Sequence record: NC_104726.1
DNA: 64,000 nucleotides
Direction: 5' to 3' (one strand)
From: a phage
Of the stretch, positions 10,259-50,080 are shown one piece after another; positions within the stretch are counted from its first letter, which is position 1, and each line of letters opens with the position of its first letter. Made by a program: the position numbers and the translations under genes. The notes below the pieces were generated by a model, which searched no databases, had not been told where the DNA came from, and saw nothing but the letters and a program-made list of their open reading frames with translations.

Positions 10259-10537
10259 ATGAGCTGCGAAAAATCTTTTTTCATCATCATTTACGGTAAG
10301 GATAACTGCCCACATTGTGTCAGAGCAAAAGAATTTGCAATCAGCAAAGGTCTGCCTTTTGTATATAAGACACTTGGCGAGGGCTACACAAAAGAAGAGC
10401 TTATTGAGAAGTGTAGTCCAATCGTCCCCCGAACGTTGCCGCAGATCTTCTTAGAAAGCGATCTTGACAGTATCCATATAGGCGGTGCCGACGATTTCAT
10501 CTCTTTTGTTAAGAATGGTTTTGGAGAGAAAAAGTGA
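10259..10537 (+). CDS. glutaredoxin (NrdH/NrdC-like redoxin)
   Basis: CPHC active site in a 92 aa thioredoxin-fold ORF between nrdB and nrdD. Confidence 0.75.
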   Translation: MSCEKSFFIIIYGKDNCPHCVRAKEFAISKGLPFVYKTLGEGYTKEELIEKCSPIVPRTLPQIFLESDLDSIHIGGADDFISFVKNGFGEKK

Positions 10538-11394
10538 AAGTTGTAAAACGGGACGGTAGAGAAGAGTTCTATAACGGAATTAAGGTGATCAAGGCGGCAG
10601 AGTCCGCCTTACTTGAGTCTGGACATACTGAAGAAGAAGCTTACCGGATCGCTTGTGCGGTTAATGAAGTTGTTGCTAACAATCTGCCAACCGACCAGTG
10701 CACGATCTCTGTAAAAAATATCCATATCCTTGTTGAAGATGCTCTTATGGATATGGGTTTAAAATGTGCAGCCAGAGAATACATCCAGTATAGACAGACA
10801 AGAGATAATAACAGAGAGGCAGGTGGAAAACTGCTTGCAGATATTAGTGGCTTCTTGGATCGAACTTGTGATGAATTTACAAAAGAAAACGCAAATAAGC
10901 CTACTAATCATGTACACACTCATCGCGACCTGCTTGCAGGTATTCTTAGCAAACACCTTGCATCAACACAGATCCTGCCAGACCGTGTCTCCGAAGAGCA
11001 CAATAAAGGCTTCATCCATGTGCATGATCTTGACTACTTGATCAGTCCGTTAACAAACTGTTGCTTGGTAAATTATCCAGATATGTTGGAAAACGGATTC
11101 AACATTGGTAACGCCCATGTCAGTAAGCCGAAGTCAATAGGGGTTGCAACAACAATCCTTAGCCAAATCTCTAGTGCGGTAGCTAGTGCTCAATATGGTG
11201 GTCAGACTATGAGCCATATTGATCATTATCTGGCACAGTATGCTGAAGCGACCTATGAGAAGAACCTTAAATTTTGCCAGGAACATTGGTTGCCAGATGC
11301 TGAAACTGTTGCAATGCAAATGACAGATAAAGACGTGTTTGACAGCATGCAGACGTTGCTTTATCAGATCAACACACTAACCTCGGTAAACGGT
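10534..11394 (+). CDS. nrdD: anaerobic ribonucleotide reductase, exon 1
   Basis: GTG start overlapping upstream stop; N-terminal ATP-cone-like region; frame closes at a stop inside the intron. Confidence 0.85.
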
Positions 11395-11684
11395 TAACAA
11401 ACTGGCCGTTTTAAAACTCTGCTAACCTTAGTATGAGGGGTCAGCTGATCGCTGGCTAACGGGGAACGCTAAGGCGAAAGCTATGCCAATCCCGTGACTA
11501 GCTTCACAAGGAGTGAGGCGGTTGTAACGACTAACCTTTTGGTGTAGGGATTATGGAAGATTCCGAAACGCAGGGGTCTGATTAAGAATCACACGGTGTG
11601 ATTTCAGGCAAGAGATAGTCTGGCCTTGTGGAAACATAAGGGTGGGGACCGCAAACCCCTTTTATCACATTAAGTTTAGGACTG
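11395..11684 (+). other. group I self-splicing intron in nrdD (no ORF)
   Basis: 290 nt between nrdD halves; P-, Q-, R-, S-like elements (AACGGGGAACGC, CAATCCCGTG, GTAACGACTAA, AAGAGATAGTCT) in order; P1 pairing 11388-11394 with 11405-11411 (U-G at splice site); ends in G at 11684. Confidence 0.8.
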
Positions 11685-12914
11685 GATACCTCGGTCTTTG
11701 GTAGAATGATTACCAAAAATTACTTGAAAGTCCACAAAATGGGTCTTGGTGAAGAACGGATCACACCTGTGTTCCCTAAAGTGCTGTTCTTCCTAGAAGA
11801 GGGTGTCAACATGAACCCTGAGGATCCTAACTATGATTTGAAACGATTAGCTCTGGAATGCTGTGCAGAACGTATCTACCCTGACTTCGTATCTGTACCA
11901 CTAAATAGAAAAGTGACAGGCTCGACAGATGGCAAAGTAACGAGCATGGGTTGCCGGAGTTTTCTTAGCAAATACAGTGACTTGGAAACAGGCGAGGAGA
12001 AATATCTTGGCAGATTTAACTTAGGCGTTGTTAGCCTTAACCTACCAATGATTGCGGCAAAAGCTAAGACGGAAGGTGTTGATTTCTTTGCAGTTCTTGA
12101 CGAATACTTGGATCTTGCATACGAGGCTCACCTTGTAAGGGTTAACCGTCTAAAAGGAACAAAGGCAGGGCAGAACCCCATCATGTGGTGTGAAGGAGCT
12201 CTTGCTCGCCTGGATCCTGAAGAGAGTATTGATAAACTCTTCTATGACGGGTACGCTTCCATCAGCATTGGGTATATTGGTGTGTATGAAACCTGTCAGA
12301 TTTTGGGTAGAGAGGGTGACAAGGCTTTAGCTCTTGGAATCCTTCAGCACATGAGAGATGCTTGTGAGCGATACAAGAAGGAAAGTAGACTAGCGTTTAG
12401 CTTGTACGGCACTCCTTCTGAGAGTCTATGCTATAAAGCTGCAACCTGTCTGGATCGTGAATATCCGGAAGTGTTGAAGCACGAGCATGAATATCTCACC
12501 AACAGTTTCCATCAGCCAGTATGGATCAATAGCTCTCCTTTTGATAAGTGGGAGTATGAGGAAGGTTTTGCTATGATCTCCTCCGGTGGCAACATCGGAT
12601 ACGTAGAGACACCTAACCTGAAAAACAACCTTGATGCTTTAGAGGCTCTTGTTGACTTCGGGTATAAACACATTATGTATTTTGGTATTAACCAACCTGT
12701 GGATAAATGTCTCAAGTGTGGTTTCTCTGGTGAGTTCAGTGCAACAGCTAAAGGGTTCTGCTGCCCTGCGTGCGGATGCCACGATGAACAATATATCTCA
12801 GTGATCCGAAGAGTGTCTGGATACCTTTCCAGTCCTAACTCCCGTCCTTACAATAAAGGTAAGCAAGCGGAAGTTATCGAGCGAGTTAAGCACTACGGAA
12901 GTTGTGGTTGCTGA
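11685..12914 (+). CDS. nrdD: anaerobic ribonucleotide reductase, exon 2
   Basis: In-frame continuation DTSVFGRMITKN...; C-terminal zinc ribbon CLKCG...CPACGC and glycyl-radical motif RVSGY. Confidence 0.85.
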   Translation, partial: DTSVFGRMITKNYLKVHKMGLGEERITPVFPKVLFFLEEGVNMNPEDPNYDLKRLALECCAERIYPDFVSVPLNRKVTGSTDGKVTSMGCRSFLSKYSDLETGEEKYLGRFNLGVVSLNLPMIAAKAKTEGVDFFAVLDEYLDLAYEAHLVRVNRLKGTKAGQNPIMWCEGALARLDPEESIDKLFYDGYASISIGYIGVYETCQILGREGDKALALGILQHMRDACERYKKESRLAFSLYGTPSESLCYKAATCLDREYPEVLKHEHEYLTNSFHQPVWINSSPFDKWEYEEGFAMISSGGNIGYVETPNLKNNLDALEALVDFGYKHIMYFGINQPVDKCLKCGFSGEFSATAKGFCCPACGCHDEQYISVIRRVSGYLSSPNSRPYNKGKQAEVIERVKHYGSCGC

Positions 12915-12980: not shown

Positions 12981-14141
12981 GTGAGAAAACTTACAACCGA
13001 AGATTTTATAGAGGGGGCGAAAGCAGTTCATGGTGATAAATATGATTATTCCAAAGTCAAATATGTGGGTGCACACACCAAGGTTGTAATTATATGCCCT
13101 GAGCATGGAGAATTTAAGAAAACTCTTGGAGATCACCTCCGTAAAAAACAGGGTTGCCCAAAATGTCAGATTGAAGCAGAAAGAGCGGCTTCTGCTGAAA
13201 AATTTAAAGCGGAGGCCGAGGCTAAGTATAATTATAAATATGATTACTCTAAGGTAGAGTATGTAAATGCTAAAACTAAAGTTGTGATTGTTTGTCCTGT
13301 TCACGGCGAGTTTGAGCAAAAGCCTGATAACCATCTCCGCGAGGGGGGTTGCCGTAAGTGTGGAGGAACTGAGAGAAAGACTACTGAAGAGTGGATCGCT
13401 GAGGCAAAAGCGCTTCATGGCGATAAGTATGATTACTCTCTTGTAAATTATAAAACCGGTAATGATAAAGTGGAGATAATCTGTAATACATGTGGTGCTC
13501 ACTTCCCACAAAGACCTCATGACCATGCACCAAGTGGAAAAGGTTGCCCCGAGTGCGGGAAGAAGAAGGTGGCCGAGGTTAGTAGGAAGACGCAGAGAAA
13601 GAAAGCATCTGAGGTAGCTAAAAGGTTTGAGGCAAGAGCCAGAGCTATCCATAAAGATAAATACGATTATTCCGGGGTGGAATATGTTAATAGGGAGACA
13701 GAGGTCACTATCATCTGTCCGATTCACGGGGAGTTCACACAAAAACCGTTTGTCCACATCAACCAAAAAGCTGGCTGTCAAAAATGTGCTAAAGTCGGCT
13801 TCTTATCTCATGAACATGGTAGCCTTTATATCATGGTTGACGATCTGGAAGTACCAACTATGATGAAAATTGGTGTGAGTGTCCGGGTAGATGAACGAAG
13901 AAAAGATGTGTTAAAAAGAGCTAAAAAAGCTGGTGCTAGATTCTCTGATCTACATGTTATAAAAACTTGGGAAGGAACAACAGACGACATGCAAACTTTA
14001 GAAAAAGCTATGCACCAAGCCTTGAGCCAATACAAAATCAACTTCACAGAGAAGTTTGATGGCTGTCGAGAGTTCTTCTACTACAGACCGGAGGTATTCG
14101 AGCTAGTAGAAGAACATTTGAAGAAATTTGCTAATAAATAA
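12981..14141 (+). CDS. T5orf172-type (GIY-YIG-like) nuclease-domain protein with four tandem zinc-ribbon-like repeats; candidate free-standing homing endonuclease
   Basis: Four repeats of GDKYDYS-V-YV---TKV-I-CP-HGEF---P--H----GCPKC; C-terminal LYIMVDD...IKIGVS...EFFYY resembles the T5orf172 domain; GTG start after TAAGAGGA. Confidence 0.6.
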   Translation: MRKLTTEDFIEGAKAVHGDKYDYSKVKYVGAHTKVVIICPEHGEFKKTLGDHLRKKQGCPKCQIEAERAASAEKFKAEAEAKYNYKYDYSKVEYVNAKTKVVIVCPVHGEFEQKPDNHLREGGCRKCGGTERKTTEEWIAEAKALHGDKYDYSLVNYKTGNDKVEIICNTCGAHFPQRPHDHAPSGKGCPECGKKKVAEVSRKTQRKKASEVAKRFEARARAIHKDKYDYSGVEYVNRETEVTIICPIHGEFTQKPFVHINQKAGCQKCAKVGFLSHEHGSLYIMVDDLEVPTMMKIGVSVRVDERRKDVLKRAKKAGARFSDLHVIKTWEGTTDDMQTLEKAMHQALSQYKINFTEKFDGCREFFYYRPEVFELVEEHLKKFANK

Positions 14142-15361: not shown

Positions 15362-16156
15362 ATGGGTCGAGCTAAAGAAACAAAACGCATGCGTGATGAA
15401 GCTAAAGAGGCTCGCAAATCTGATCGCCTGCGTAAAGCTGCTGAGAAATTTGCTGAAGAACGAGAGCACACAGCTCCAGCTCTCCGACCGATGAATAAAA
15501 AACAAGAGTATTATCTCCACCTTCTTAAAACTAAACAGTTAGTGATCGCAACAGGGCTGTTTGGCACAGGCAAGTCGTTTATGGCTGCAGCTTATGCTGC
15601 AGACCTGCTTCGTAAGAACGAGATTGATAGAATTATTGTTTGCCGCCCAAATGTTGAATGTGGAAGCCATGGCACGGGGTTCAAACCTGGAGGTGTATTA
15701 CAGAAAAACGAACCTTTCTTAAAATCAATTTTAGAAACTCTCAAAAAACGACTCGGACCTGGTGCTTATAGTACGTTATTGGGAGACGGTCAGACTGGGC
15801 GCATCGAGGTGCAAGAGGTTGCAACAATCCGAGGTCGAGATTTCTCTGATCGTTGCATCATCCTAGTTGATGAGTTTCAGTTGACAACCTGTGCAGAGGC
15901 TTTGGCAATTGCCACACGGCTTGGTGAGCATGCACAAATGATTTGCATGGGAGACTTACGACAGAACGATCTCAAAGGCACCTCAGGACTTCAGTGGCTG
16001 ATCGACTTTGTAACGAGGCACGAAATCAACGGTGTTGGTATCGTAGATTTTGACGAGCCAGAAGATGTGGTTCGCTCAGGTATTGGTAGACTGTTTGCAC
16101 TAGGCCTTATGACTGACCGTAATAAAGGTGTGTGGACCCCTGAGGCAGGTTTATAA
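15362..16156 (+). CDS. phoH: PhoH-family ATPase
   Basis: Walker A GLFGTGKSFMAAAYA and Walker B-like IILVDEFQ; GGAG RBS. Confidence 0.8.
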   Translation: MGRAKETKRMRDEAKEARKSDRLRKAAEKFAEEREHTAPALRPMNKKQEYYLHLLKTKQLVIATGLFGTGKSFMAAAYAADLLRKNEIDRIIVCRPNVECGSHGTGFKPGGVLQKNEPFLKSILETLKKRLGPGAYSTLLGDGQTGRIEVQEVATIRGRDFSDRCIILVDEFQLTTCAEALAIATRLGEHAQMICMGDLRQNDLKGTSGLQWLIDFVTRHEINGVGIVDFDEPEDVVRSGIGRLFALGLMTDRNKGVWTPEAGL

Positions 16157-16168
16157 TATATATAGGAG

Positions 16169-16192
16169 AGAGGGTGATATTATTCACCCTCT
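16169..16192 (+). terminator. terminator-like hairpin after phoH
   Basis: AGAGGGTGA-TATTAT-TCACCCTCT, perfect 9 bp stem, followed by ATTTAAG. Confidence 0.35.
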
Positions 16193-16199
16193 ATTTAAG

Positions 16200-17129
16200 A
16201 TGCGTTTAGGAGAACAGTTATCACGAGAAGAAGTGTTTATCAAGAAAGCTACTGATAAGCATGGTGACAAGTATGATTACTCCAAAGTTGTATACAAAAA
16301 CAACACAACACCTGTGAATATAGTGTGCAACAAGTGTGGTACAGTTTTTAGTAAAACTCCTAAGTCTCACCTTATAGGCGCAGGATGCCCAGATTGTAAG
16401 AACAGGGAGTTAAGTGAGAGATTCCGAATGTCTAAGGAGGAGTTTGTAAAAAGGGCAACAGAACTGCACAAGGGGAAGTATGACTACTCTCTTGTAAAAA
16501 GTTTTTCTAACAGGAACGACACTGTTACTATTATTTGCCCCATCCACGGAGAGTTCAAGCAGACAGTTGCAAATCATTTAGCTGGTGGGTGCTACAAGTG
16601 TGGAAAAAGAGCGACAGCTAAAAAGATGAGGAAGTCTAAAGATAGATTCATAGAGGATGCTACTCAACTACACGGAGACATATATGACTATTCAGAAGTG
16701 AAGTATGTGAATACCCACACTCCTGTAACCATTATCTGCAAGTCTTGCGGGTGTAAGTTTCTTCAACAGCCTGCAAACCACCTGTGCGGTAACGGTTGCC
16801 CAGAATGCTCTACTTCAGGATTCAGGCAGAGTACTAAAGAGAGCTGTCTGTACCTTCTTGTTGATGATCTTACCATTCCCACGGTTATAAAAGTTGGGGT
16901 GACTATCAATCTACAGAGCAGACTATACAACATAAGAAGGAACACAAATTTTCCTGTTCACGTGCTTAAAGTATTTACTTTCGAGCAGGGGTGTGCTACC
17001 ATGCAGATTGAAAAATTGGTGCATAAAGTCTTTGCAGATCGCAACTGCCACTTCGAAGGTTTCGACGGGGCAACGGAGTGGTTCTGGTACTCTCATGATA
17101 TTGTAGAGTTTCTAGAAGACAATTGTTGA
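16200..17129 (+). CDS. T5orf172-type nuclease-domain protein with three tandem zinc-ribbon-like repeats (paralog of 12981..14141)
   Basis: Three GDKYDYS...CP-HGEF...GCP-C repeats plus C-terminal LYLLVDD...IKVGVT...EWFWY; ATG at 16200 in frame with track ORF 16128..17129. Confidence 0.55.
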   Translation: MRLGEQLSREEVFIKKATDKHGDKYDYSKVVYKNNTTPVNIVCNKCGTVFSKTPKSHLIGAGCPDCKNRELSERFRMSKEEFVKRATELHKGKYDYSLVKSFSNRNDTVTIICPIHGEFKQTVANHLAGGCYKCGKRATAKKMRKSKDRFIEDATQLHGDIYDYSEVKYVNTHTPVTIICKSCGCKFLQQPANHLCGNGCPECSTSGFRQSTKESCLYLLVDDLTIPTVIKVGVTINLQSRLYNIRRNTNFPVHVLKVFTFEQGCATMQIEKLVHKVFADRNCHFEGFDGATEWFWYSHDIVEFLEDNC

Positions 17130-43879: not shown

Positions 43880-44100
43880 ACCGGTGACGGGGGAGACAAC
43901 CACCGGGGATGGGCGCTGCATGAAATGAGAACGATTATCATTATCGTCTAAAAATTTATGCAAAAACTTCTTGCTTTCTTTGTCCTGTGTGTTACTATAA
44001 TAACAAGCCGGGGCAGTAGGGGCCGGGAGACAATCACCGGGCCTGCCCGTTATTCTGCAAACGAGAATGATTATCATTCAAAATTCTAAATGAGAACTCC
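43880..44100. repeat. two GC-rich direct repeats with an operator-like palindrome
   Basis: GGGAGACAACCACCGGGG...AAATGAGAACGATTATCATT (43891-43942) vs GGGAGACAATCACCGGG...AAACGAGAATGATTATCATT (44024-44079); palindrome GAATGAT-T-ATCATTC at 44064-44078. Confidence 0.45.
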
Positions 44101-44189
44101 TCGCATTTAATAAATTTAATTAGCACGCTAATTACCCTCCGTAACAATTTCCTATAAAATAGTATCCACTAAAATATTCCCATATAGAA

Positions 44190-44640
44190 ATTTTAAAAAT
44201 CCATTTCTGAAAACGAAAAATCGATTTCGTCCCCAAAAATTTCAGGCCAAGAGCCGGAGCGATTTCCAGAAAATCCGATTCAGAAAACGAAAAACAGATC
44301 AAGTACTGAGAAATTTATCGAGAAAAATTTTCAGAAAATCCAAGCCCTGAAATGAAAAGTAGATCGAGTACCTGGAAAGCTGCACCGCAACTTCAAGATA
44401 GTGGTTAGATTGTTACCATAGAAGGTCAAGGGTAAGTGGAGGAAGTTCTAGTAGAGGGAGGTTAGCATGTGTGGGAAATCTATAATGGTGGCCTGGAATA
44501 TGGTGCAAACGATAGGATGAGTTATTCAGCTTGTCGCGCCTACTCTGAAAAATCCATTTTAGTTTTCGATCCATTTTCTGATTTTCTAAGAATTTTAAAA
44601 TATCTGGCCCGGTGAAATATCAAAAGGAGGAAATCCATTT
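44190..44640. repeat. degenerate tandem repeats of about 65-72 bp, each with a GATC
   Basis: Three adjacent copies of AGAAAATCC...CTGAAAACGAAAAA..GATC.AGTAC (44196, 44268, 44333) plus AAATCCATTTTAG remnants at 44540 and 44611. Confidence 0.45.
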
Positions 44641-44683
44641 TAGAAATCCCCCTTATACTTGATATGCCAGGAATTTTCAAGTA

Positions 44684-45013
44684 TCAGCTGTCTTTGTTTT
44701 TAGGTTTGTACATGCGCAGAGGTATGGTCTTTGTAACATTCCATTTCCTCAACCCTTCCCAGCTCCAGTTGTGGGCGTGATACCCGGTTATGCATGCACT
44801 GCTGGCGTGATCATAAGCATAAGAGAACGCTATGTGCACCAGGTGGGGCCAGTCCTTCCACGGCTGTGGACCGTAAGCCTTTCTCCAACACCGACACAAA
44901 CTAATTGTCTCAAGAATAGGGAGAATAACAATTCCATATACCACCACCAGAATGGTCAGTGCAATGATTGTCAGGAACACATACCCTGCAGTTGAAATGA
45001 TGATCTCTGTCAT
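44684..45013 (-). CDS. membrane protein
   Basis: N-terminal hydrophobic helices. Confidence 0.4.
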   Translation of the reverse strand: MTEIIISTAGYVFLTIIALTILVVVYGIVILPILETISLCRCWRKAYGPQPWKDWPHLVHIAFSYAYDHASSACITGYHAHNWSWEGLRKWNVTKTIPLRMYKPKNKDS

Positions 45014-45213
45014 TTGTCGTCCCCTTTCTTACGAATATAGATGTGAGAGCCTGCCTGTATATAAATTTCTCGACCATCCTCTGCAAAGATATGAAATACA
45101 CGATCACCTTCGTACTCGATACGAGATATCTTCATAATGGTCTTTCCACCTGGGATACGGATCTCGTCCCCCACAGCGATGTTCCATGCAGATTTAAGCT
45201 TAAACATCTGCAC
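45010..45213 (-). CDS. hypothetical small protein
   Basis: Track ORF, ATGA-type overlap. Confidence 0.35.
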   Translation of the reverse strand: MQMFKLKSAWNIAVGDEIRIPGGKTIMKISRIEYEGDRVFHIFAEDGREIYIQAGSHIYIRKKGDDK

Positions 45214-45445
45214 CCTCCTTTGGGAACTTGAACTCTGGCATAGCCATATACGCTACAACAGGGTTGTGATCAAAGTAGAACTGACCGTTAATTATCCCGG
45301 TTTTGTCCACATAGTTACCAGATCCTGCAAGAACAACCTCGCAAGCTCCGAAATCCACATTGCCATCCTCATCAGCCATGGCTACGATATACTTTCCAAG
45401 AGGCATGTTTTTAACGCCGTCTACAAATGTCCACTCTGTGTTCAT
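45200..45445 (-). CDS. hypothetical small protein
   Basis: Track ORF, co-oriented. Confidence 0.35.
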   Translation of the reverse strand: MNTEWTFVDGVKNMPLGKYIVAMADEDGNVDFGACEVVLAGSGNYVDKTGIINGQFYFDHNPVVAYMAMPEFKFPKEGADV

Positions 45446-45454
45446 ACTTTACCC

Positions 45455-45787
45455 TTAAGGTAGCCAGTAAACAATCTCGCCTTTCAGCTTCATATCGTTT
45501 CCAACATAAATTTCCCAGCCATCCATCTTAGCAACTGTAGGCCCAAAGTCATCCGCACCCCTTACCTCTTTCCAGGCTCCGTAGTCAGGTTGCCAGATAT
45601 AGAATCCACCTTCTTTGTCCCATGCTCCGTACACTACGTTTAACAGGTTTCCCATTGCAACAATGGTGGGCCGTGGGAATAATACATCTACAGATGCGCC
45701 ACAATTTCGGGTATCTTTTAAGTTGCAATCCCAAAAGATGTCTGCCAGTGTGGCGGCGATAGCTTTACGTCTTTCCAAAGTTACCAT
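45455..45787 (-). CDS. hypothetical protein
   Basis: Track ORF, co-oriented. Confidence 0.4.
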   Translation of the reverse strand: MVTLERRKAIAATLADIFWDCNLKDTRNCGASVDVLFPRPTIVAMGNLLNVVYGAWDKEGGFYIWQPDYGAWKEVRGADDFGPTVAKMDGWEIYVGNDMKLKGEIVYWLP

Positions 45788-45797
45788 GGCACGATAC

Positions 45798-45989
45798 TCA
45801 CTTGTTGTTAAGAAGTTCTAAAACTTTCTGTTTTACTTTATCAAGATCTGTTGATTCAAAAACTGTGCGATATCCCCAACTTTGCCCGTAGGAGTGACTG
45901 CAATCCCCGTAGCACCATTGCTCAATTTGATAGTATTCAAGGAAGGGGTGCTGTCTAACTATGATACCATCCCGGTTAAAAATTACCAT
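45798..45989 (-). CDS. hypothetical small protein
   Basis: Track ORF, co-oriented. Confidence 0.3.
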   Translation of the reverse strand: MVIFNRDGIIVRQHPFLEYYQIEQWCYGDCSHSYGQSWGYRTVFESTDLDKVKQKVLELLNNK

Positions 45990-46052
45990 AATACATCACT
46001 CTCTGTTAGTTTATGCATATATTATACACTGCAGTTTTCAGATGTCAATCTT

Positions 46053-46304
46053 TTACAGGTTACTCCAGTATAATCGGCATTTACATTTTGGGCAATGAGG
46101 TTCTTTTATGTAATAACCATCAGTCTTTGGAACACTTTTTGGTGCAGTTTTAAGATTGTACCGAGTAAAACACCGGAAGCAGGTTACCTCTCCAACCTGT
46201 TGATCGTTTATCCACTCGCCAGAGTAAAGCTCTCTCTTGTTTCTCATAATTCTCTCCCAAATCCTCTGCAATCTTATACCAAAATCTCCAGCCAGAAAGC
46301 ACAC
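46053..46304 (-). CDS. small zinc-ribbon protein
   Basis: CFRC...CPKCKC cysteine pairs. Confidence 0.35.
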   Translation of the reverse strand: MCFLAGDFGIRLQRIWERIMRNKRELYSGEWINDQQVGEVTCFRCFTRYNLKTAPKSVPKTDGYYIKEPHCPKCKCRLYWSNL

Positions 46305-46498
46305 GGGAACATTTTGATGATTGAATCTTTACCTGGTTCAGTAGTTCTTTTTCCGTATGGTAGGTAGAAATACACTCCTGCAGATTCGAACACAGCCCCT
46401 TCGGTCGTATCTATCACAGCCAGAATTAAGATTTTAGTCTCCACAGCGCTCTCCTCTCTTAGTCGTTGTGGAAACTATATCACCTCAGAAGATGGTCG

Positions 46499-46957
46499 TC
46501 AACACTTTTTATACTCTACTACAACCACATCAATATCTGCAGTTGCAAGATTAATTACATCTTCTACGTGTTCCCACTTTAGACCGCCAATACCGCATCC
46601 GATTTTAGGAATGTAGAACGGCAATGACACACCTTTGAATACCTCGTTGACTCGCTCAAAACCTTTCATTATTGAGAAGTATTCAGCATTGGGCCCTGGG
46701 TAGAACTGGGTATACAGGTTGATTCCATATACGACCCTGTTCTTGGCAAAATGCTCCCAACAAGAAAACATACCCAGCTTGTCCAGATTACCATAGGCAG
46801 TCTCTTTGTCGGCTGCCAGTGCTTGAGGGAACTCACGGGCAATATCTTTCGCTATGCCTGCACCCATTGTATGAAAGCAGTTACAACCGTGGATCAGGTG
46901 ACCAGCACCGCTCTTAAAAAGGGAGATTAAATCTCCACCTACAGTATCAATAATCAC
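46499..46957 (-). CDS. macrodomain protein (ADP-ribose binding/processing)
   Basis: HGCNCFHTMGAGIAKDIAREFP and IGCGIGGLKWEHV resemble the two macrodomain glycine-rich motifs. Confidence 0.55.
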   Translation of the reverse strand: MIIDTVGGDLISLFKSGAGHLIHGCNCFHTMGAGIAKDIAREFPQALAADKETAYGNLDKLGMFSCWEHFAKNRVVYGINLYTQFYPGPNAEYFSIMKGFERVNEVFKGVSLPFYIPKIGCGIGGLKWEHVEDVINLATADIDVVVVEYKKC

Positions 46958-47372
46958 GGTATGTCAGCTCCTCTTCCGCAATTTCAAAAAACTCATCCCA
47001 ACCTTGTGGCATATTTGAGTTGCCGAAGTGGCTTTCATAGTAAAGGTTCTCACCACTTGGGAGATAGAAATCTGTTACCTCGTAGAATCCACAATCGTCG
47101 CACTCGCCTTCTTCAAACTTGGCCTCAACCTTAATACCTAGGAAGGTGAAAAGTTTATGGATATCTTCAGTTTCGAACTCCCAGCAGATATTGTTTTCCG
47201 CATCGGTGTAGAACTGGATCAGCAGACCATTATCCAGTTTACCAAAATATTCTGTGAAGTAACTACCTTCCCAGAAATCTTTATGACAAATAATATCCAT
47301 GCGCTTGCCCATGATAAAGGTGTGGGCGTTTTGGGCATCGTCACGAATCAGTTTTGGCATTTCATAGATCAT
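46947..47372 (-). CDS. hypothetical acidic protein
   Basis: Track ORF, overlaps neighbour. Confidence 0.4.
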   Translation of the reverse strand: MIYEMPKLIRDDAQNAHTFIMGKRMDIICHKDFWEGSYFTEYFGKLDNGLLIQFYTDAENNICWEFETEDIHKLFTFLGIKVEAKFEEGECDDCGFYEVTDFYLPSGENLYYESHFGNSNMPQGWDEFFEIAEEELTYRDY

Positions 47373-47440
47373 CTTAGTTCTCCGGGTTCAACAGGTGGTG
47401 GTGCTACAGGAAGATCATAAAACATGGCTATCACAGTCTC

Positions 47441-47638
47441 TTACACAGGAATTGCTTCAAATAGACCGTTATCTATACCGTCCTTCAGATAGAGATTATA
47501 TTCTATGTCGGTATCTGTATAAAGGGCAGCATCCAGCATTCTATCTGTGAGTCCATCCATTGGGTGGAGAAACCACCACCCACGCCAGTCAAAGTAACAG
47601 CCTGGTGCATCTTCTCTTACACGGATTCGATAAATCAT
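47441..47638 (-). CDS. hypothetical small protein
   Basis: Track ORF, co-oriented. Confidence 0.3.
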   Translation of the reverse strand: MIYRIRVREDAPGCYFDWRGWWFLHPMDGLTDRMLDAALYTDTDIEYNLYLKDGIDNGLFEAIPV

Positions 47639-47734
47639 GGGCAGTGGTCTCCTGTTAGTTATACATCCCAGTTTTCTTCGTTCATCGCGTCCTCCCGTTT
47701 TATGAAGTTATAATTGCACACCTTTCAACCTGTG

Positions 47735-48151
47735 TCAACAGAAAACTTCAACAAATTCTTCCACAGTTTTAATGTCATGGGAAAAAGGTTTACGGCTATA
47801 ACGGGCAATAGCACTATCAACCACCGCCCGATACTCAAGATCTTCAGAATATTTCATGAAGCATTGCAGCGTCTCTGGGCAGATAGCTAAATAGCTCCAC
47901 CACCCTTCTTCAGATTGGTAGTCGAATCCCATACTTTCCAACCATGAAGCATATACTCCTGCACCCTCAAGCCAGTGAGTATTTTCATCCAGAAACTTGT
48001 TAATAGACATGTGAGCTTCTAAGCATTTATCCAGCTCTTTTCCGTTAACCAGCCACGCACTGACCGTGGCGCATCCAAGGTCTACAGATTGAGTTGACAG
48101 GTTGTATTGGTCATAGTTCTCAGGTTTAACAATGATATCTTCTAATGTCAT
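47735..48151 (-). CDS. hypothetical protein
   Basis: AAGGAGA RBS on the minus strand. Confidence 0.4.
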   Translation of the reverse strand: MTLEDIIVKPENYDQYNLSTQSVDLGCATVSAWLVNGKELDKCLEAHMSINKFLDENTHWLEGAGVYASWLESMGFDYQSEEGWWSYLAICPETLQCFMKYSEDLEYRAVVDSAIARYSRKPFSHDIKTVEEFVEVFC

Positions 48152-48170
48152 TTTTCAGATCTCCTTATAC

Positions 48171-48198
48171 AAAAATGCCCCACCCTTTCGGGCAGGGC
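48171..48198 (-). terminator. rho-independent terminator (element also found at 59792..59818)
   Basis: Minus strand GCCCTGCCC-GAAA-GGGTGGGGC followed by ATTTTTG. Confidence 0.5.
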
Positions 48199-48213
48199 TA
48201 TGTTAACTAGGTG

Positions 48214-48837
48214 CTAAAAGTATTCGTAGAGGTATCCATCGGGGGCTGGAATTTTTTCATGAATGTAGTAATCAACACATATTCCGGTTTCTCTTCTACA
48301 AGAATTGTGGGATACCCATTCTTTAAGAACGTTTCCATTCATGTCCAGCCTCCTTACATTTTTACACCGTCTACCGCTGGTGCTTCTATGCAATAGAATA
48401 TCCTCCGTCTGCTTGTCTTTATTTTCTCCCCAGGTCGTTAAACGGATATTATCAAAAGAGTACCCTTTGAAATCATCTATCCTGTCACAAGAAGGCTTTT
48501 TCCTTTTGTCGTATCCGCTGGCTACCCACTGATCATACAACTCTTTGTAACCGTTCAGGTATAGCCACTCCTTAAACTCTTTTTTGGTGTAAGTCGGAGG
48601 CGGGTGACCTCTTTGCTTGCTGTTGCACTTTTGAGCCTTGTACAGCACGCGTATTACACCTTTTTCTGAAGAGTCGTGGGAAAATTGGTCAGCCTCCCTG
48701 CTGGCCTTCTTGCAACACTCTTTGCACTTATTAAGATGACCGTCAGACATCTTTGGGTGTTTGTAGAACTCGGAGAGGTTTTTCACCTCTCCGCACTTGA
48801 TGCACCTCTTACAATGCGTGGATTCTACTTTTGCCAT
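48214..48837 (-). CDS. HNH_3-like endonuclease-fold protein with zinc finger; first His of the motif replaced by Arg
   Basis: [23 protein letters not shown] aligns to the HNH_3 pattern (DHIDGN...NLRLVT..EN); N-terminal CKRCIKCG; start taken at MAKVESTHC. Confidence 0.45.
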
Positions 48838-50080
48838 ATTGCAAACCCACCGGAGCGAAAGGTATGTCATCACAGAACTCATACTGTGCTGGATTCTGAT
48901 CCATTGGGTCATCTTCCTCATCATTTACAGGAGGAGCGTCTACAGTGTTTTGCTGTGGAGCTGCTTCCTGTTTGGCAGCCTGAGGTTCTTGATGGTCAGT
49001 GGACTCAGCACCGTTCTTGATCCAATCGTACAACGGCTCAGCCAGATTAGTCAAGACATCTTTTGCTTCTGCAGTAATTGCCGCTGCAAAATCATCAACT
49101 TTCGTTTTCTTGTCAATACGGCGACAAGCGTTCAACACCGCATTACCGACACTGGCACCTACTTCATCTTCAGTTCGGTTGGTGGCTTGAGCATACTCTT
49201 TCTTAAGCTCAATAGTGACTACGTGTAGTGTTTTAGCCACTCCTAGTGGGTCGTCTACCTTAAACCCGCGATCCAGGATGATTTGCAACGCATTGATGCT
49301 ATGCCCCGTTTCCACACCGATAGGGTCGTAAGAGGATTTACGCTTGCCACCAGAGCCTTGAGTACCGTTCTCTGCCTTAGGAGGATAGGCTTTGAAACCA
49401 CTGATAATGTTTCCGGTGTCTTTGTCAACAATGGCTGCAACACGACCACCTACCACCAGGTCTTTAAGCTGCTCATCAGTTACAACCATAGCACCTTCGC
49501 CAATCTTGTGGTCATTAACAGTAACCACGTTGCCAACAATCTGAGTCACATCACCATAGATGCGTAAAACGTCCTGATTGGCATTCTGCTGAGGTTTCTG
49601 CTTCTGGCCTTGTGATTGTGCACCTTGTTGCTGTTTTTGCTGCTGAGTCGCTGCTGGAGCCTCTCCTGCACCCAGCTTAACCATCTTAGCCAGTGAGCCT
49701 TTGTAGTAGGTCTTACCGTTATGCTCGTTTGCCTTCAAAGGGATATTTACGATCCATCCTGGCGTTACGGTTTCCCACTTGTCATCAATTTTAACAGAGA
49801 CAGAGTCTTGATGACCCGGTTTAAGCAGCTTATCGCCCATACTGATCCAAACTTCTTCACCACCTTGAAGTAGGTTATCAGAGGAATCCAGTTCAGAAAT
49901 CAGTAAAGAGATGGTGTGGCTGGACTCAATTTTCTTACCTTGCCACACAGTGGTTTTAATACCTGTTGTAGGATCAGCACCTTTGATAGGCTTGATGCTG
50001 ACGCGTTTAATCATGCCGTGAGCCAGTAAAACAGTTTCACGCGGATTCATCGGGTTAGCGAATTGTTGAATAACGCTCAT
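48809..50080 (-). CDS. putative ssDNA-binding protein
   Basis: Gln/Ala-rich linker and acidic tail ...[23 protein letters not shown] like the bacterial SSB C-terminal DDIPF; position next to replication genes. Confidence 0.4.

What the first reader, a model, noticed from the sequence alone, without database searches (positions are those of the whole stretch)
46499..46957. Phage-encoded macrodomain protein
The product carries the two glycine-rich macrodomain signatures (HGCNCFHTMGAGIAKDIAREFP and GCGIGGLKWEHV). Macrodomains bind or hydrolyse ADP-ribose adducts, so a phage copy may reverse host ADP-ribosylation-based defences or process NAD-derived signals.
Basis: partly seen in the sequence, partly recalled or inferred. 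Interest (0 to 1): 0.55.

Follow-up and report, generated by a model that had tools for sequence, protein, structure and literature searches.

The report
Phage Tk.4/AdfM-type macrodomain gene
This is a real, intact macrodomain gene of an rV5-like E. coli phage, an orthologue of phage T4 Tk.4 (AdfM), which most likely strips ADP-ribose off phage DNA to defeat the bacterial DarTG2 defence; the family and its role are already described, so the finding is correct but ordinary.

Summary
The ORF at 46499-46957 (minus strand, 152 aa, GTG start) exists as described and carries both quoted motifs. It is a macrodomain by four tests:
- Pfam Macro scores above its gathering cutoff.
- PHROG 335 matches at E 1e-59.
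- A family profile matches PDB macrodomains at E about 1e-14.
- The AlphaFold2 model (pLDDT 95) matches TARG1, DarG, Poa1p and SCO6735.

The window is a Vequintavirus (rV5-like coliphage), and the gene is rv5_gp204, annotated "tk.4". It is 39% identical over its full length to T4 Tk.4. A 2025 preprint named T4 Tk.4 AdfM, because deleting it makes T4 sensitive to DarTG2.

One nuance emerged. Where DarG, TARG1 and PhiKZ AdfM have their catalytic lysine, this clade has a nearly invariant glutamine (Q84). Streptomyces SCO6735 has the same substitution, yet it cleaves thymidine-linked ADP-ribose from DNA and needs that Gln to do so.

The Vequintavirus copy itself has never been tested. Novelty: already known. 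Interest is low to moderate.

The parts
46499..46957 (-). Coding sequence of a 152-aa single-domain macrodomain protein (Tk.4/AdfM type); GTG start at 46955-46957, stop at 46499-46501
   Evidence: ORF. Pfam Macro above its gathering cutoff. PHROG 335 at E 1e-59. 39% identity and E 2e-43 to T4 Tk.4. AF2 pLDDT 95.3. Foldseek hits to TARG1, DarG, Poa1p and SCO6735. Equals rv5_gp204 'tk.4'.
46968..46975 (-). Shine-Dalgarno sequence AAGAGGAG, 10 nt upstream of the GTG start
   Evidence: Read directly from the sequence. It supports the long GTG-initiated form over the internal ATG used in the MiataMamis annotation.
46826..46891 (-). Codons 23-44: macrodomain loop 1 (H23-G-C-N26-C ... M31-G-A-G34), which binds the distal ribose and phosphate
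   Evidence: H23 in 142 of 148 and N26 in 147 of 148 diverse representatives. They align to SCO6735 H24/N27 and DarG N22. DarG N22A strongly reduces activity (PMC5179494).
46706..46708 (-). Codon for Q84 (CAG), at the position of the catalytic Lys of DarG (K80) and TARG1 (K84), and of the essential Gln85 of SCO6735
   Evidence: HMMER alignments to MtbDarG, TARG1, SCO6735 and BT1257. Q in 78 of 78 and in 147 of 148 family members. SCO6735 Q85A/E is inactive (PMC9411070).
46565..46600 (-). Codons 120-131: macrodomain loop 2 (G120-C-G122-I-G-G125-L-K-W128), the diphosphate-binding glycine-rich loop
   Evidence: G120 and G122 are invariant and G125 nearly so. They align to DarG G117/G119/G121, which contact ADP-ribose. 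The position of TARG1 D125 is G124 here.
47710..47738 (-). Candidate sigma-70-type promoter (TTGACA-17-AATTAT with TG). It may drive the three-gene unit 47441-47638, 46947-47372 and 46499-46957. This is inferred only.
   Evidence: Consensus scan. A terminator-like hairpin lies just upstream at 48177-48198. The gene lies in a long minus-strand block of small early-type genes with annotated sigma-70 promoters in rV5.

Best explanation
The gene encodes a stand-alone ADP-ribosylglycohydrolase of the ALC1-like (TARG1/DarG/SCO6735) macrodomain class. It is the Vequintavirus orthologue of T4 Tk.4 (AdfM).

The most likely mechanism has four steps.
1. The gene is expressed from the early, host-promoter-driven gene block (inferred).
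2. The protein binds ADP-ribose attached to thymidine in single-stranded phage DNA, which is the lesion made by the DarT2 toxin of DarTG2 systems.
3. It hydrolyses the ribose-base bond.
4. Phage DNA replication can then continue, so the protein acts as an 'orphan antitoxin'.

Catalysis probably does not use the lysine of DarG and TARG1. It probably uses the lysine-independent route proposed for SCO6735, in which Gln (Q84 here), with H23 and N26, positions the substrate and an activated water.

Shown here: the ORF, the macrodomain fold and ligand loops, orthology to T4 Tk.4, and the Gln substitution. Taken from the literature: the T4 knockout phenotype and SCO6735 biochemistry. Inferred: the same substrate and role in this phage.
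For: Macrodomain identity.

In both PADLOC and NCBIfam, DarG is the only family matched, and only over its macrodomain part (E 1.5e-13 and 1.8e-12).

Orthology to T4 Tk.4:
- 39% identity, E 2e-43, end-to-end alignment.
- Same best PHROG.
- rV5 annotates the gene as tk.4.
- It is the only macrodomain gene in the window.

T4 tk.4 was the single significant HIDEN-SEQ hit on a DarTG2 host, and a clean deletion sensitised T4 to DarTG2. It is non-essential otherwise.

Q84, H23 and N26 are nearly invariant across 148 diverse relatives. They align with SCO6735 Q85, H24 and N27. SCO6735 hydrolyses dT-ADP-ribose on DNA, protects against DarT, and is dead as Q85A/E.

Purifying selection: dN/dS 0.11-0.19. 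The gene is conserved across more than 100 Vequintavirus records.

A different phage macrodomain, PhiKZ gp104, has been shown biochemically to remove DarT2 marks, so the strategy is established.
Against: No experiment exists on the Vequintavirus protein.

Identity to T4 Tk.4 is only 39%, and the T4 evidence is genetic, from one preprint, with no biochemistry for any Tk.4-type enzyme.

Macrodomains of this class are promiscuous. SCO6735 and TARG1 also act on protein Glu-ADP-ribose, and Poa1p acts on ADP-ribose-1''-phosphate. Substrate therefore cannot be read from sequence.

SCO6735's DNA-facing lysines K34 and K89 are not conserved here: they correspond to A33 and G88.

Similarity to DarG is modest (47-49 bits against 133-138 bits for PhiKZ AdfM).

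No gene neighbour gives functional context. All neighbours belong to unknown PHROGs.
Confidence: 0.65

Rival explanations
1. The protein is a broader or different eraser. It removes ADP-ribose from another target, such as proteins, RNA or another DNA base. The modification could be placed by a different host ADP-ribosylating defence or toxin, or by the host's or phage's own ADP-ribosyltransferases. DarT2 would not be the main target in this phage.
For: Enzymes of this class are promiscuous: SCO6735 also de-modifies PARP1-type protein substrates, and TARG1 is a protein glutamate-ADP-ribose hydrolase. Identity to the tested T4 protein is only 39%. An Asp (D50) invariant in this clade has no counterpart in DarG, SCO6735 or TARG1 and is unexplained.
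Against: In T4 the orthologue scored specifically on DarTG2. No ADP-ribosyltransferase domain was found among the neighbours or the larger unannotated ORFs scanned in this window. DarG is the only defence-related family matched.
Confidence: 0.2
2. The protein is a metabolic 'phosphatase' or deacetylase, as many database labels say. It would be a Poa1p-like ADP-ribose-1''-phosphate phosphatase or a YmdB-like O-acetyl-ADP-ribose deacetylase, clearing small NAD-derived metabolites rather than macromolecular adducts.
For: Annotations read 'phosphatase', 'Poa1p-like' or 'O-acetyl-ADP-ribose deacetylase'. Poa1p structures are among the top sequence and fold matches. H23 aligns with the His of Poa1p's IHSCNC motif; I infer this is the H23 mutated in PDB entry 6lfs.
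Against: These labels derive from the generic A1pp motif, not from assays. No tRNA-splicing or sirtuin context that would make such metabolites is evident in the window. The T4 orthologue's only known phenotype is defence-specific, and it is dispensable in standard growth. Poa1p is no closer than DarG, TARG1 or SCO6735 (47 bits against 55-58 bits).
Confidence: 0.08
3. The protein is a non-catalytic binder. It would sequester ADP-ribose-derived immune signals, or bind and block DarT directly, without hydrolysis.
For: The catalytic lysine of DarG and TARG1 is absent. Catalytically dead SCO6735 Q85A still inhibits DarT by interaction. Phage AdfB counters DarT through likely direct interaction.
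Against: The Gln that replaces the lysine is itself essential for catalysis in SCO6735 and is nearly invariant here, as are H23 and N26. That pattern points to a conserved active site rather than a decayed one. The 152-aa protein has no extra domain like the DarT-binding C-terminal domain of DarG.
Confidence: 0.05

Closest known systems
Phage T4 Tk.4 = AdfM (anti-DarT factor Macrodomain), HIDEN-SEQ preprint, bioRxiv 10.1101/2025.11.20.689424
   Same: Single-domain protein of about 150 aa. 39% identity over the whole length. Same best PHROG. Same H-x-x-N, T-Q and G-x-G-x-x-G motifs. Located in an early or accessory gene region, and non-essential in T4.
   Different: Different phage subfamily (Vequintavirinae versus Tevenvirinae) and different neighbours: T4 tk.4 sits between tk.3 and vs. 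Function is shown only for T4, and only genetically.
Streptomyces coelicolor SCO6735 (PDB 5e3b), an orphan macrodomain hydrolase of thymidine-linked DNA ADP-ribosylation (PMC9411070)
   Same: Stand-alone ALC1-like macrodomain without a DarT partner. Gln at the DarG/TARG1 lysine position, and conserved His and Asn in loop 1. Profile match at E 2e-14 and a fold match.
   Different: Bacterial, not phage. Only about 22% identity in the Foldseek alignment. SCO6735 K34 and K89 are not conserved. SCO6735 has the motif 'GQHG' where this clade has 'YTQF'.
DarG antitoxin macrodomain of DarTG2 (T. aquaticus 5m31/5m3e, M. tuberculosis 5m3i; NCBIfam NF048014; PADLOC DarG)
   Same: Same fold class and ligand loops. 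DarG is the only family hit in PADLOC and NCBIfam. Top PDB sequence hit. Same presumed substrate.
   Different: Catalytic K80 is replaced by Q84. There is no C-terminal DarT-binding domain and no adjacent darT. The score is 47 bits against the 250-bit equivalog cutoff.
Chimallivirus AdfM (PhiKZ gp104), Cell Rep 2026, PMC13309987
   Same: A phage-encoded stand-alone macrodomain that counters DarTG2. Same best PHROG 335.
   Different: Only 22% identity, pairwise E 7e-5. PhiKZ AdfM is DarG-type, with N23 and K78, and scores 133-138 bits on the DarG models against 47-49 bits here. It is imported into the phage nucleus. It represents a separate lineage or acquisition.
Human TARG1/OARD1 (PDB 4j5r/4j5s) and yeast Poa1p (6lfq-6lfu)
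   Same: Best Foldseek matches, with TM about 0.70-0.78. Same ALC1-like macrodomain class.
   Different: The TARG1 Lys84/Asp125 dyad corresponds to Q84/G124 here. These are eukaryotic enzymes acting on a protein substrate or on a small phosphorylated metabolite.

Membership tests
Macrodomain (Pfam PF01661) | Profile HMM score at or above the curated gathering cutoff | tested here: met
   25.9 bits against a cutoff of 22, E 1e-5. Most close homologues carry precomputed PF01661.
Macrodomain (Pfam PF01661) | Three-layer alpha/beta/alpha fold with a central mixed beta-sheet | tested here: met
   AF2 model with pLDDT 95.3, pTM 0.90, and alternating strands and helices. Foldseek probability 1.00 to TARG1, DarG, Poa1p, SCO6735, and coronavirus and alphavirus macrodomains.
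Macrodomain (Pfam PF01661) | Two ADP-ribose-binding loops: loop 1 with Asn plus G-x-G, and a glycine-rich loop 2 | tested here: met
   N26 and G32-A-G34, and G120-x-G122-x-x-G125, are (nearly) invariant. They align with the DarG residues that contact ADP-ribose.
Macrodomain (Pfam PF01661) | Binds or hydrolyses ADP-ribose derivatives | not testable with these tools
   Needs ITC or hydrolase assays.
T4 Tk.4 / AdfM family | Full-length homology to T4 Tk.4 with the same domain architecture | tested here: met
   39% identity, E 2e-43, residues 1-150 against 1-152. Both have phrog_335 as best family. It is the sole hit of T4 Tk.4 in the window.
T4 Tk.4 / AdfM family | Required for phage growth on DarTG2-expressing hosts | not testable with these tools
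   Shown only for T4. No data for any Vequintavirus were found.
DarG antitoxin (NCBIfam NF048014 / PADLOC DarG) | Catalytic lysine (TaqDarG K80) | tested here: not met
   Q84 occupies that column in alignments to MtbDarG and TARG1. Q is found in 147 of 148 relatives.
DarG antitoxin (NCBIfam NF048014 / PADLOC DarG) | Two-domain protein of about 330 aa with a C-terminal DarT-binding domain; equivalog score of at least 250 bits | tested here: not met
   The protein is 152 aa. It matches only positions 8-144 of 338, at 47.2 bits; PADLOC positions 9-143 of 329.
DarG antitoxin (NCBIfam NF048014 / PADLOC DarG) | Encoded next to a darT toxin gene | tested here: not met
   Ten flanking ORFs have no Pfam toxin or ART domain and all belong to phage PHROGs of unknown function. 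The context is a lytic phage genome.
SCO6735-type (lysine-independent) DNA dT-ADP-ribose hydrolases | Gln at the DarG/TARG1 lysine position, plus His and Asn in loop 1 (SCO6735 Q85, H24, N27) | tested here: met
   Q84, H23 and N26 align with these residues. For their importance in SCO6735.
SCO6735-type (lysine-independent) DNA dT-ADP-ribose hydrolases | Basic residues K34 and K89 flanking the cleft | tested here: not met
   They correspond to A33 and G88 here.
TARG1/OARD1 | Lys84/Asp125 catalytic dyad | tested here: not met
   The aligned residues are Q84 and G124.
Poa1p-like ADP-ribose-1''-phosphate phosphatase (source of the 'phosphatase' label) | Poa1p active-site residues and Appr-1''-p phosphatase activity | tested here: inconclusive
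   H23 aligns with the His of the Poa1p 'IHSCNC' motif, and there is a fold match. The central region was not aligned by sequence, the Poa1p structure paper is not in the library, and activity cannot be tested.
Chimallivirus AdfM (PhiKZ gp104 type) | DarG-like active site N23 and K78; close similarity to DarG2 | tested here: not met
   The Asn is present but the Lys is not. 22% identity to gp104. DarG model scores are 47-49 bits against 133-138 bits for gp104.

The most novel reading that the evidence does not exclude
Tk.4-type phage macrodomains are defined by an H-x-x-N ... D50 ... T-Q ... G-x-G-x-x-G signature and lack the DarG/TARG1 lysine. They may be a mechanistically distinct, lysine-independent branch of counter-defence erasers. 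Their substrate range could be broader than, or different from, DarT2-modified thymidine: other ADP-ribosylated bases, RNA or proteins. In that case the Vequintavirus copy would protect against an ADP-ribosylating defence other than, or in addition to, DarTG2.
Probability: 0.15. Interest if true: 0.5.

Novelty: already known. Interest (0 to 1): 0.25.

Why it matters
The finding confirms that rV5-like therapeutic-candidate coliphages carry a probable anti-DarTG2 gene. This bears on host-range prediction, because DarTG systems occur in E. coli and in clinical isolates of other species.

The useful new detail is that the whole Tk.4/AdfM clade has Gln instead of the catalytic Lys of DarG. There are 4,829 cluster representatives at E <= 1e-3, and Gln is present in 147 of the 148 best representatives aligned. 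This links the clade mechanistically to SCO6735 rather than to DarG. It also means two proteins that both carry the name 'AdfM', T4 Tk.4 and PhiKZ gp104, are different enzyme types.

The work also flags a recurrent mis-annotation: 'phosphatase' labels, and a truncated start in MiataMamis.

Tried and rejected
1. Partner gene. The upstream 141-aa ORF (46947-47372) overlaps the macrodomain gene by 11 nt. It has no Pfam hit and belongs to an unknown PHROG. In the rV5 record its RB49 homologue (NP_891635) and RB49 Tk.4 (NP_891662) have accession numbers 27 apart, which suggests they are not adjacent there. I did not check RB49 directly. No evidence of functional coupling.

2. Companion NADAR (AdfN) or ADP-ribosyltransferase. 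Some Vequintavirinae have AdfN. Pfam scans of 26 ORFs in the window found none. The scan was not exhaustive, and only 64 kb of the roughly 136-kb genome is visible.

3. ICP1 AdfB as a possible relative. Rejected: the paper describes it as acting through likely direct interaction with DarT and does not describe it as a macrodomain.

4. Membership in DarG proper. Rejected: the catalytic Lys, the C-terminal domain and the darT neighbour are all absent.

5. Data on Vequintavirinae versus DarTG2, or on the Bas54 orthologue, in the HIDEN-SEQ paper and supplements. Nothing specific found.

6. The Poa1p structure paper, to compare active sites. It is not in the library.

7. A bacterial clade member from Pelagimonas, checked for a darT neighbour. 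It is a stand-alone gene among housekeeping genes.

Full report
**Observation**

The window has an ORF at 46499..46957 on the minus strand, 152 aa, starting with GTG. A strong Shine-Dalgarno sequence (AAGAGGAG) lies 10 nt upstream of the GTG.

The same GTG and the first 30 codons are conserved in phages rV5 and MiataMamis. Pairwise dN/dS among the three is 0.11-0.19, although the counts are small. The alignment with T4 Tk.4 starts at residue 1 of both proteins. The ORF is therefore a real gene under purifying selection, and the long form is the correct one. The MiataMamis record annotates it from an internal ATG (369 nt), which would remove the first strand and the H23/N26 motif.

**What it is**

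Four lines of evidence agree that it is a macrodomain.
- Pfam Macro (PF01661) is the only Pfam hit and clears its gathering score: 25.9 against 22 bits.
- PHROG 335 matches at E 1.2e-59 over the whole protein.
- A profile built from 78 homologues (A1) hits solved macrodomains: BT1257, SCO6735, M. tuberculosis DarG and human TARG1 at E 1e-14 to 1e-13, and yeast Poa1p at 2e-11.
- An AlphaFold2 model from that alignment is confident (pLDDT 95.3, pTM 0.90). Its best Foldseek matches in the PDB are TARG1, T. aquaticus and M. tuberculosis DarG, Poa1p, the T. africanus DarTG complex, BT1257 and SCO6735. All have probability 1.00 and TM about 0.7-0.78. Viral MacroD-type macrodomains rank further down.

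The protein therefore belongs to the ALC1-like (TARG1/DarG) class of macrodomains. In PADLOC and in NCBIfam the only family it matches is DarG. The match covers only the macrodomain part and lies far below the equivalog cutoff: 47-49 bits against 250.

**Genome context**

The 6 kb around the gene are 94-98% identical to more than 100 rV5-like phages (Vequintavirus; best match MiataMamis at 98%). In the rV5 reference genome the gene is rv5_gp204, annotated 'tk.4, phosphatase; similar to RB49 Tk.4'. Other records call it 'macro domain protein'.

It sits in a long minus-strand block of small genes of unknown function, with annotated sigma-70 promoters in rV5. A consensus-like promoter lies at 47738-47710 and a terminator-like hairpin at 48198-48177 upstream of it. 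Early, host-polymerase-driven expression is thus plausible but only inferred.

The ten flanking ORFs have no informative domains, with two exceptions: a phage zinc-binding domain (46056-46304) and an endonuclease VII-like protein (48217-48924). tblastn finds only one macrodomain gene in the window.

**Distribution**

tblastn finds homologues in 2,737 of 50,697 phage records, and T4-like phages carry a copy next to vs. A search of 1.84 billion cluster representatives finds 4,829 relatives at E <= 1e-3 and 1,443 at E <= 1e-10. The 150 best are mostly single-domain proteins of about 150 aa. A bacterial member (Pelagimonas) is a stand-alone chromosomal gene without a darT neighbour.

**Link to known function**

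The window protein is 39% identical to T4 Tk.4 over the full length, E 2e-43. A 2025 preprint (bioRxiv 10.1101/2025.11.20.689424) reports three results for tk.4:
- It was the single significant transposon-sequencing hit when T4 infected a DarTG2-expressing host.
- A clean deletion sensitised T4 to DarTG2.
- The protein resembles the DarG macrodomain.

The authors named it AdfM and proposed that it removes ADP-ribose from DNA. tk.4 is otherwise non-essential, with 45 of 46 TA sites disrupted.

Independently, a Cell Reports 2026 paper (PMC13309987) showed biochemically that a chimallivirus macrodomain, PhiKZ gp104, removes DarT2-made ADP-ribose from DNA. That protein was also named AdfM. Earlier work had noted that T4 lacking AdfA and AdfN is still DarTG2-resistant, implying another factor. 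I found no biochemical study of any Tk.4-type protein and no test of a Vequintavirus against DarTG2.

**Active-site nuance**

In HMMER alignments to M. tuberculosis DarG and to TARG1, the window's 'YTQF' aligns with 'PTKK' and 'ITKK'. Q84 thus occupies the position of the catalytic lysine, DarG K80 and TARG1 K84. The TARG1 partner D125 corresponds to G124. DarG K80A is inactive (PMC5179494).

The same column is Gln in SCO6735 and BT1257. For SCO6735 it was shown that:
- the enzyme cleaves thymidine-linked ADP-ribose from DNA and protects against DarT;
- Gln85 is at the lysine position;
- Q85A and Q85E abolish activity;
- a water-mediated mechanism is proposed (PMC9411070).

In the Tk.4 clade, Q84 is present in 78 of 78 close homologues and in 147 of 148 diverse representatives. 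H23 is present in 142 of 148 and N26 in 147 of 148. T4 Tk.4 has the same 'NLYTQF'.

PhiKZ AdfM, in contrast, has the DarG-type N23 and K78. It is only 22% identical to the window protein and scores 133-138 bits on the DarG models. The two 'AdfM' proteins are therefore different enzyme types that PHROG 335 lumps together.

SCO6735's K34 and K89 are not conserved here (A33 and G88). The clade has its own invariant D50 of unknown role.

**Most likely mechanism**

The protein is most likely an orphan antitoxin-like DNA de-ADP-ribosylase. It would bind ADP-ribosyl-thymidine on single-stranded phage DNA, made by DarT2, and hydrolyse it by a lysine-independent route that depends on the conserved Gln. 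This would restore replication.

I put this at about 0.65. The remainder goes to three rivals: a different or broader ADP-ribose substrate (0.2), a small-metabolite 'phosphatase' or deacetylase role as the database labels suggest (0.08), and a non-catalytic binder (0.05). That it is a functional macrodomain is close to certain.

**Novelty and verdict**

The gene has been annotated as a Tk.4/macro-domain homologue since the rV5 genome was published. The family is very large, and its counter-defence role has been reported for the T4 orthologue. The finding is therefore already known.

This analysis adds three things: the assignment of the Vequintavirus gene to the Gln-type (SCO6735-like) branch rather than the DarG or PhiKZ-AdfM Lys-type branch, the correction of a truncated start in a close relative, and an explicit experimental plan. 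Interest: 0.25.

**Side observations**

Relative to MiataMamis, the window has a 257-bp insertion inside nrdD (11394-11650) that splits the gene into two ORFs. The insertion matches the Rfam group I intron model end to end, but below the gathering score: 29.8 bits against 50, E 8e-6 in a local search. It also folds better than shuffled sequence, z = -3.6.

Two paralogous T5orf172/DUF723 homing-endonuclease-like genes (12981-14141 and 16128-17129) are also extra relative to MiataMamis. There are no tRNAs and no Rfam hits at gathering score in the window.

Noticed in passing
window 11394-11650 (+), inside nrdD (ORFs 10534-11397 and 11706-12914): A 257-bp insertion relative to MiataMamis splits the anaerobic ribonucleotide reductase gene. 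It matches the Rfam group I intron model RF00028 over the full model (1-253), but at 29.8 bits, below the gathering score of 50 (E 8e-6 in a 451-nt search). Its MFE z-score is -3.6. It is probably a small ORF-less group I intron.
   Followed up: partly
window 12981-14141 (+) and 16128-17129 (+): Two paralogous ORFs carry T5orf172/MUG113 (GIY-YIG-like) plus DUF723/DUF4379 zinc-finger domains, so they look like homing endonucleases. Both lie where MiataMamis has no corresponding sequence: one between nrdD and nrdG, the other after phoH.
   Followed up: partly
L003 (MiataMamis) 46500-46868, corresponding to window 46499-46867: The closest relative annotates the macrodomain gene from an internal ATG (122 aa, 'phosphatase'). 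This cuts off the first strand and the H23/N26 motif. The GTG start, its Shine-Dalgarno sequence and the first 30 codons are conserved, so that annotation is probably truncated.
   Followed up: yes
window 44000-50000, compared with GenBank MG0656xx records: Sixteen records named 'Campylobacter phage' (host C. jejuni) matched. The five listed are 94.6-96.6% identical over 6 kb to this rV5-like coliphage region. The names or hosts are probably wrong, or the preparations were contaminated.
   Followed up: no
window 46808-46810 (-), codon D50 of the macrodomain: Asp50 is invariant in 78 of 78 close homologues, and is Asp or Glu in 148 of 148 diverse clade members. It has no conserved counterpart in the DarG, SCO6735, BT1257 or TARG1 alignments, and its role is unknown.
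   Followed up: no
window 46947-47372 (-): A 141-aa ORF (phrog_8157, no Pfam hit) overlaps the start of the macrodomain gene by 11 nt, which suggests translational coupling. In the rV5 record its RB49 homologue and RB49 Tk.4 have accession numbers 27 apart, suggesting they are not adjacent there; this was not checked directly.
   Followed up: partly
H18 (Escherichia phage UPWr_E1, 168 kb, T4-like) 163175-163627: A T4-like phage carries a copy 69% identical to the window protein, far closer than T4's own Tk.4 (39%). This suggests lateral exchange of this gene between Vequintavirinae and some Straboviridae.
   Followed up: no
window 48214-48924 (-) and 48809-50080 (-): The endonuclease VII-like ORF (phrog_1035), as listed from its first ATG, overlaps the 3' end of the upstream 423-aa gene by about 116 nt. 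rV5 annotates a shorter 207-aa form, so the true start is probably internal.
   Followed up: no
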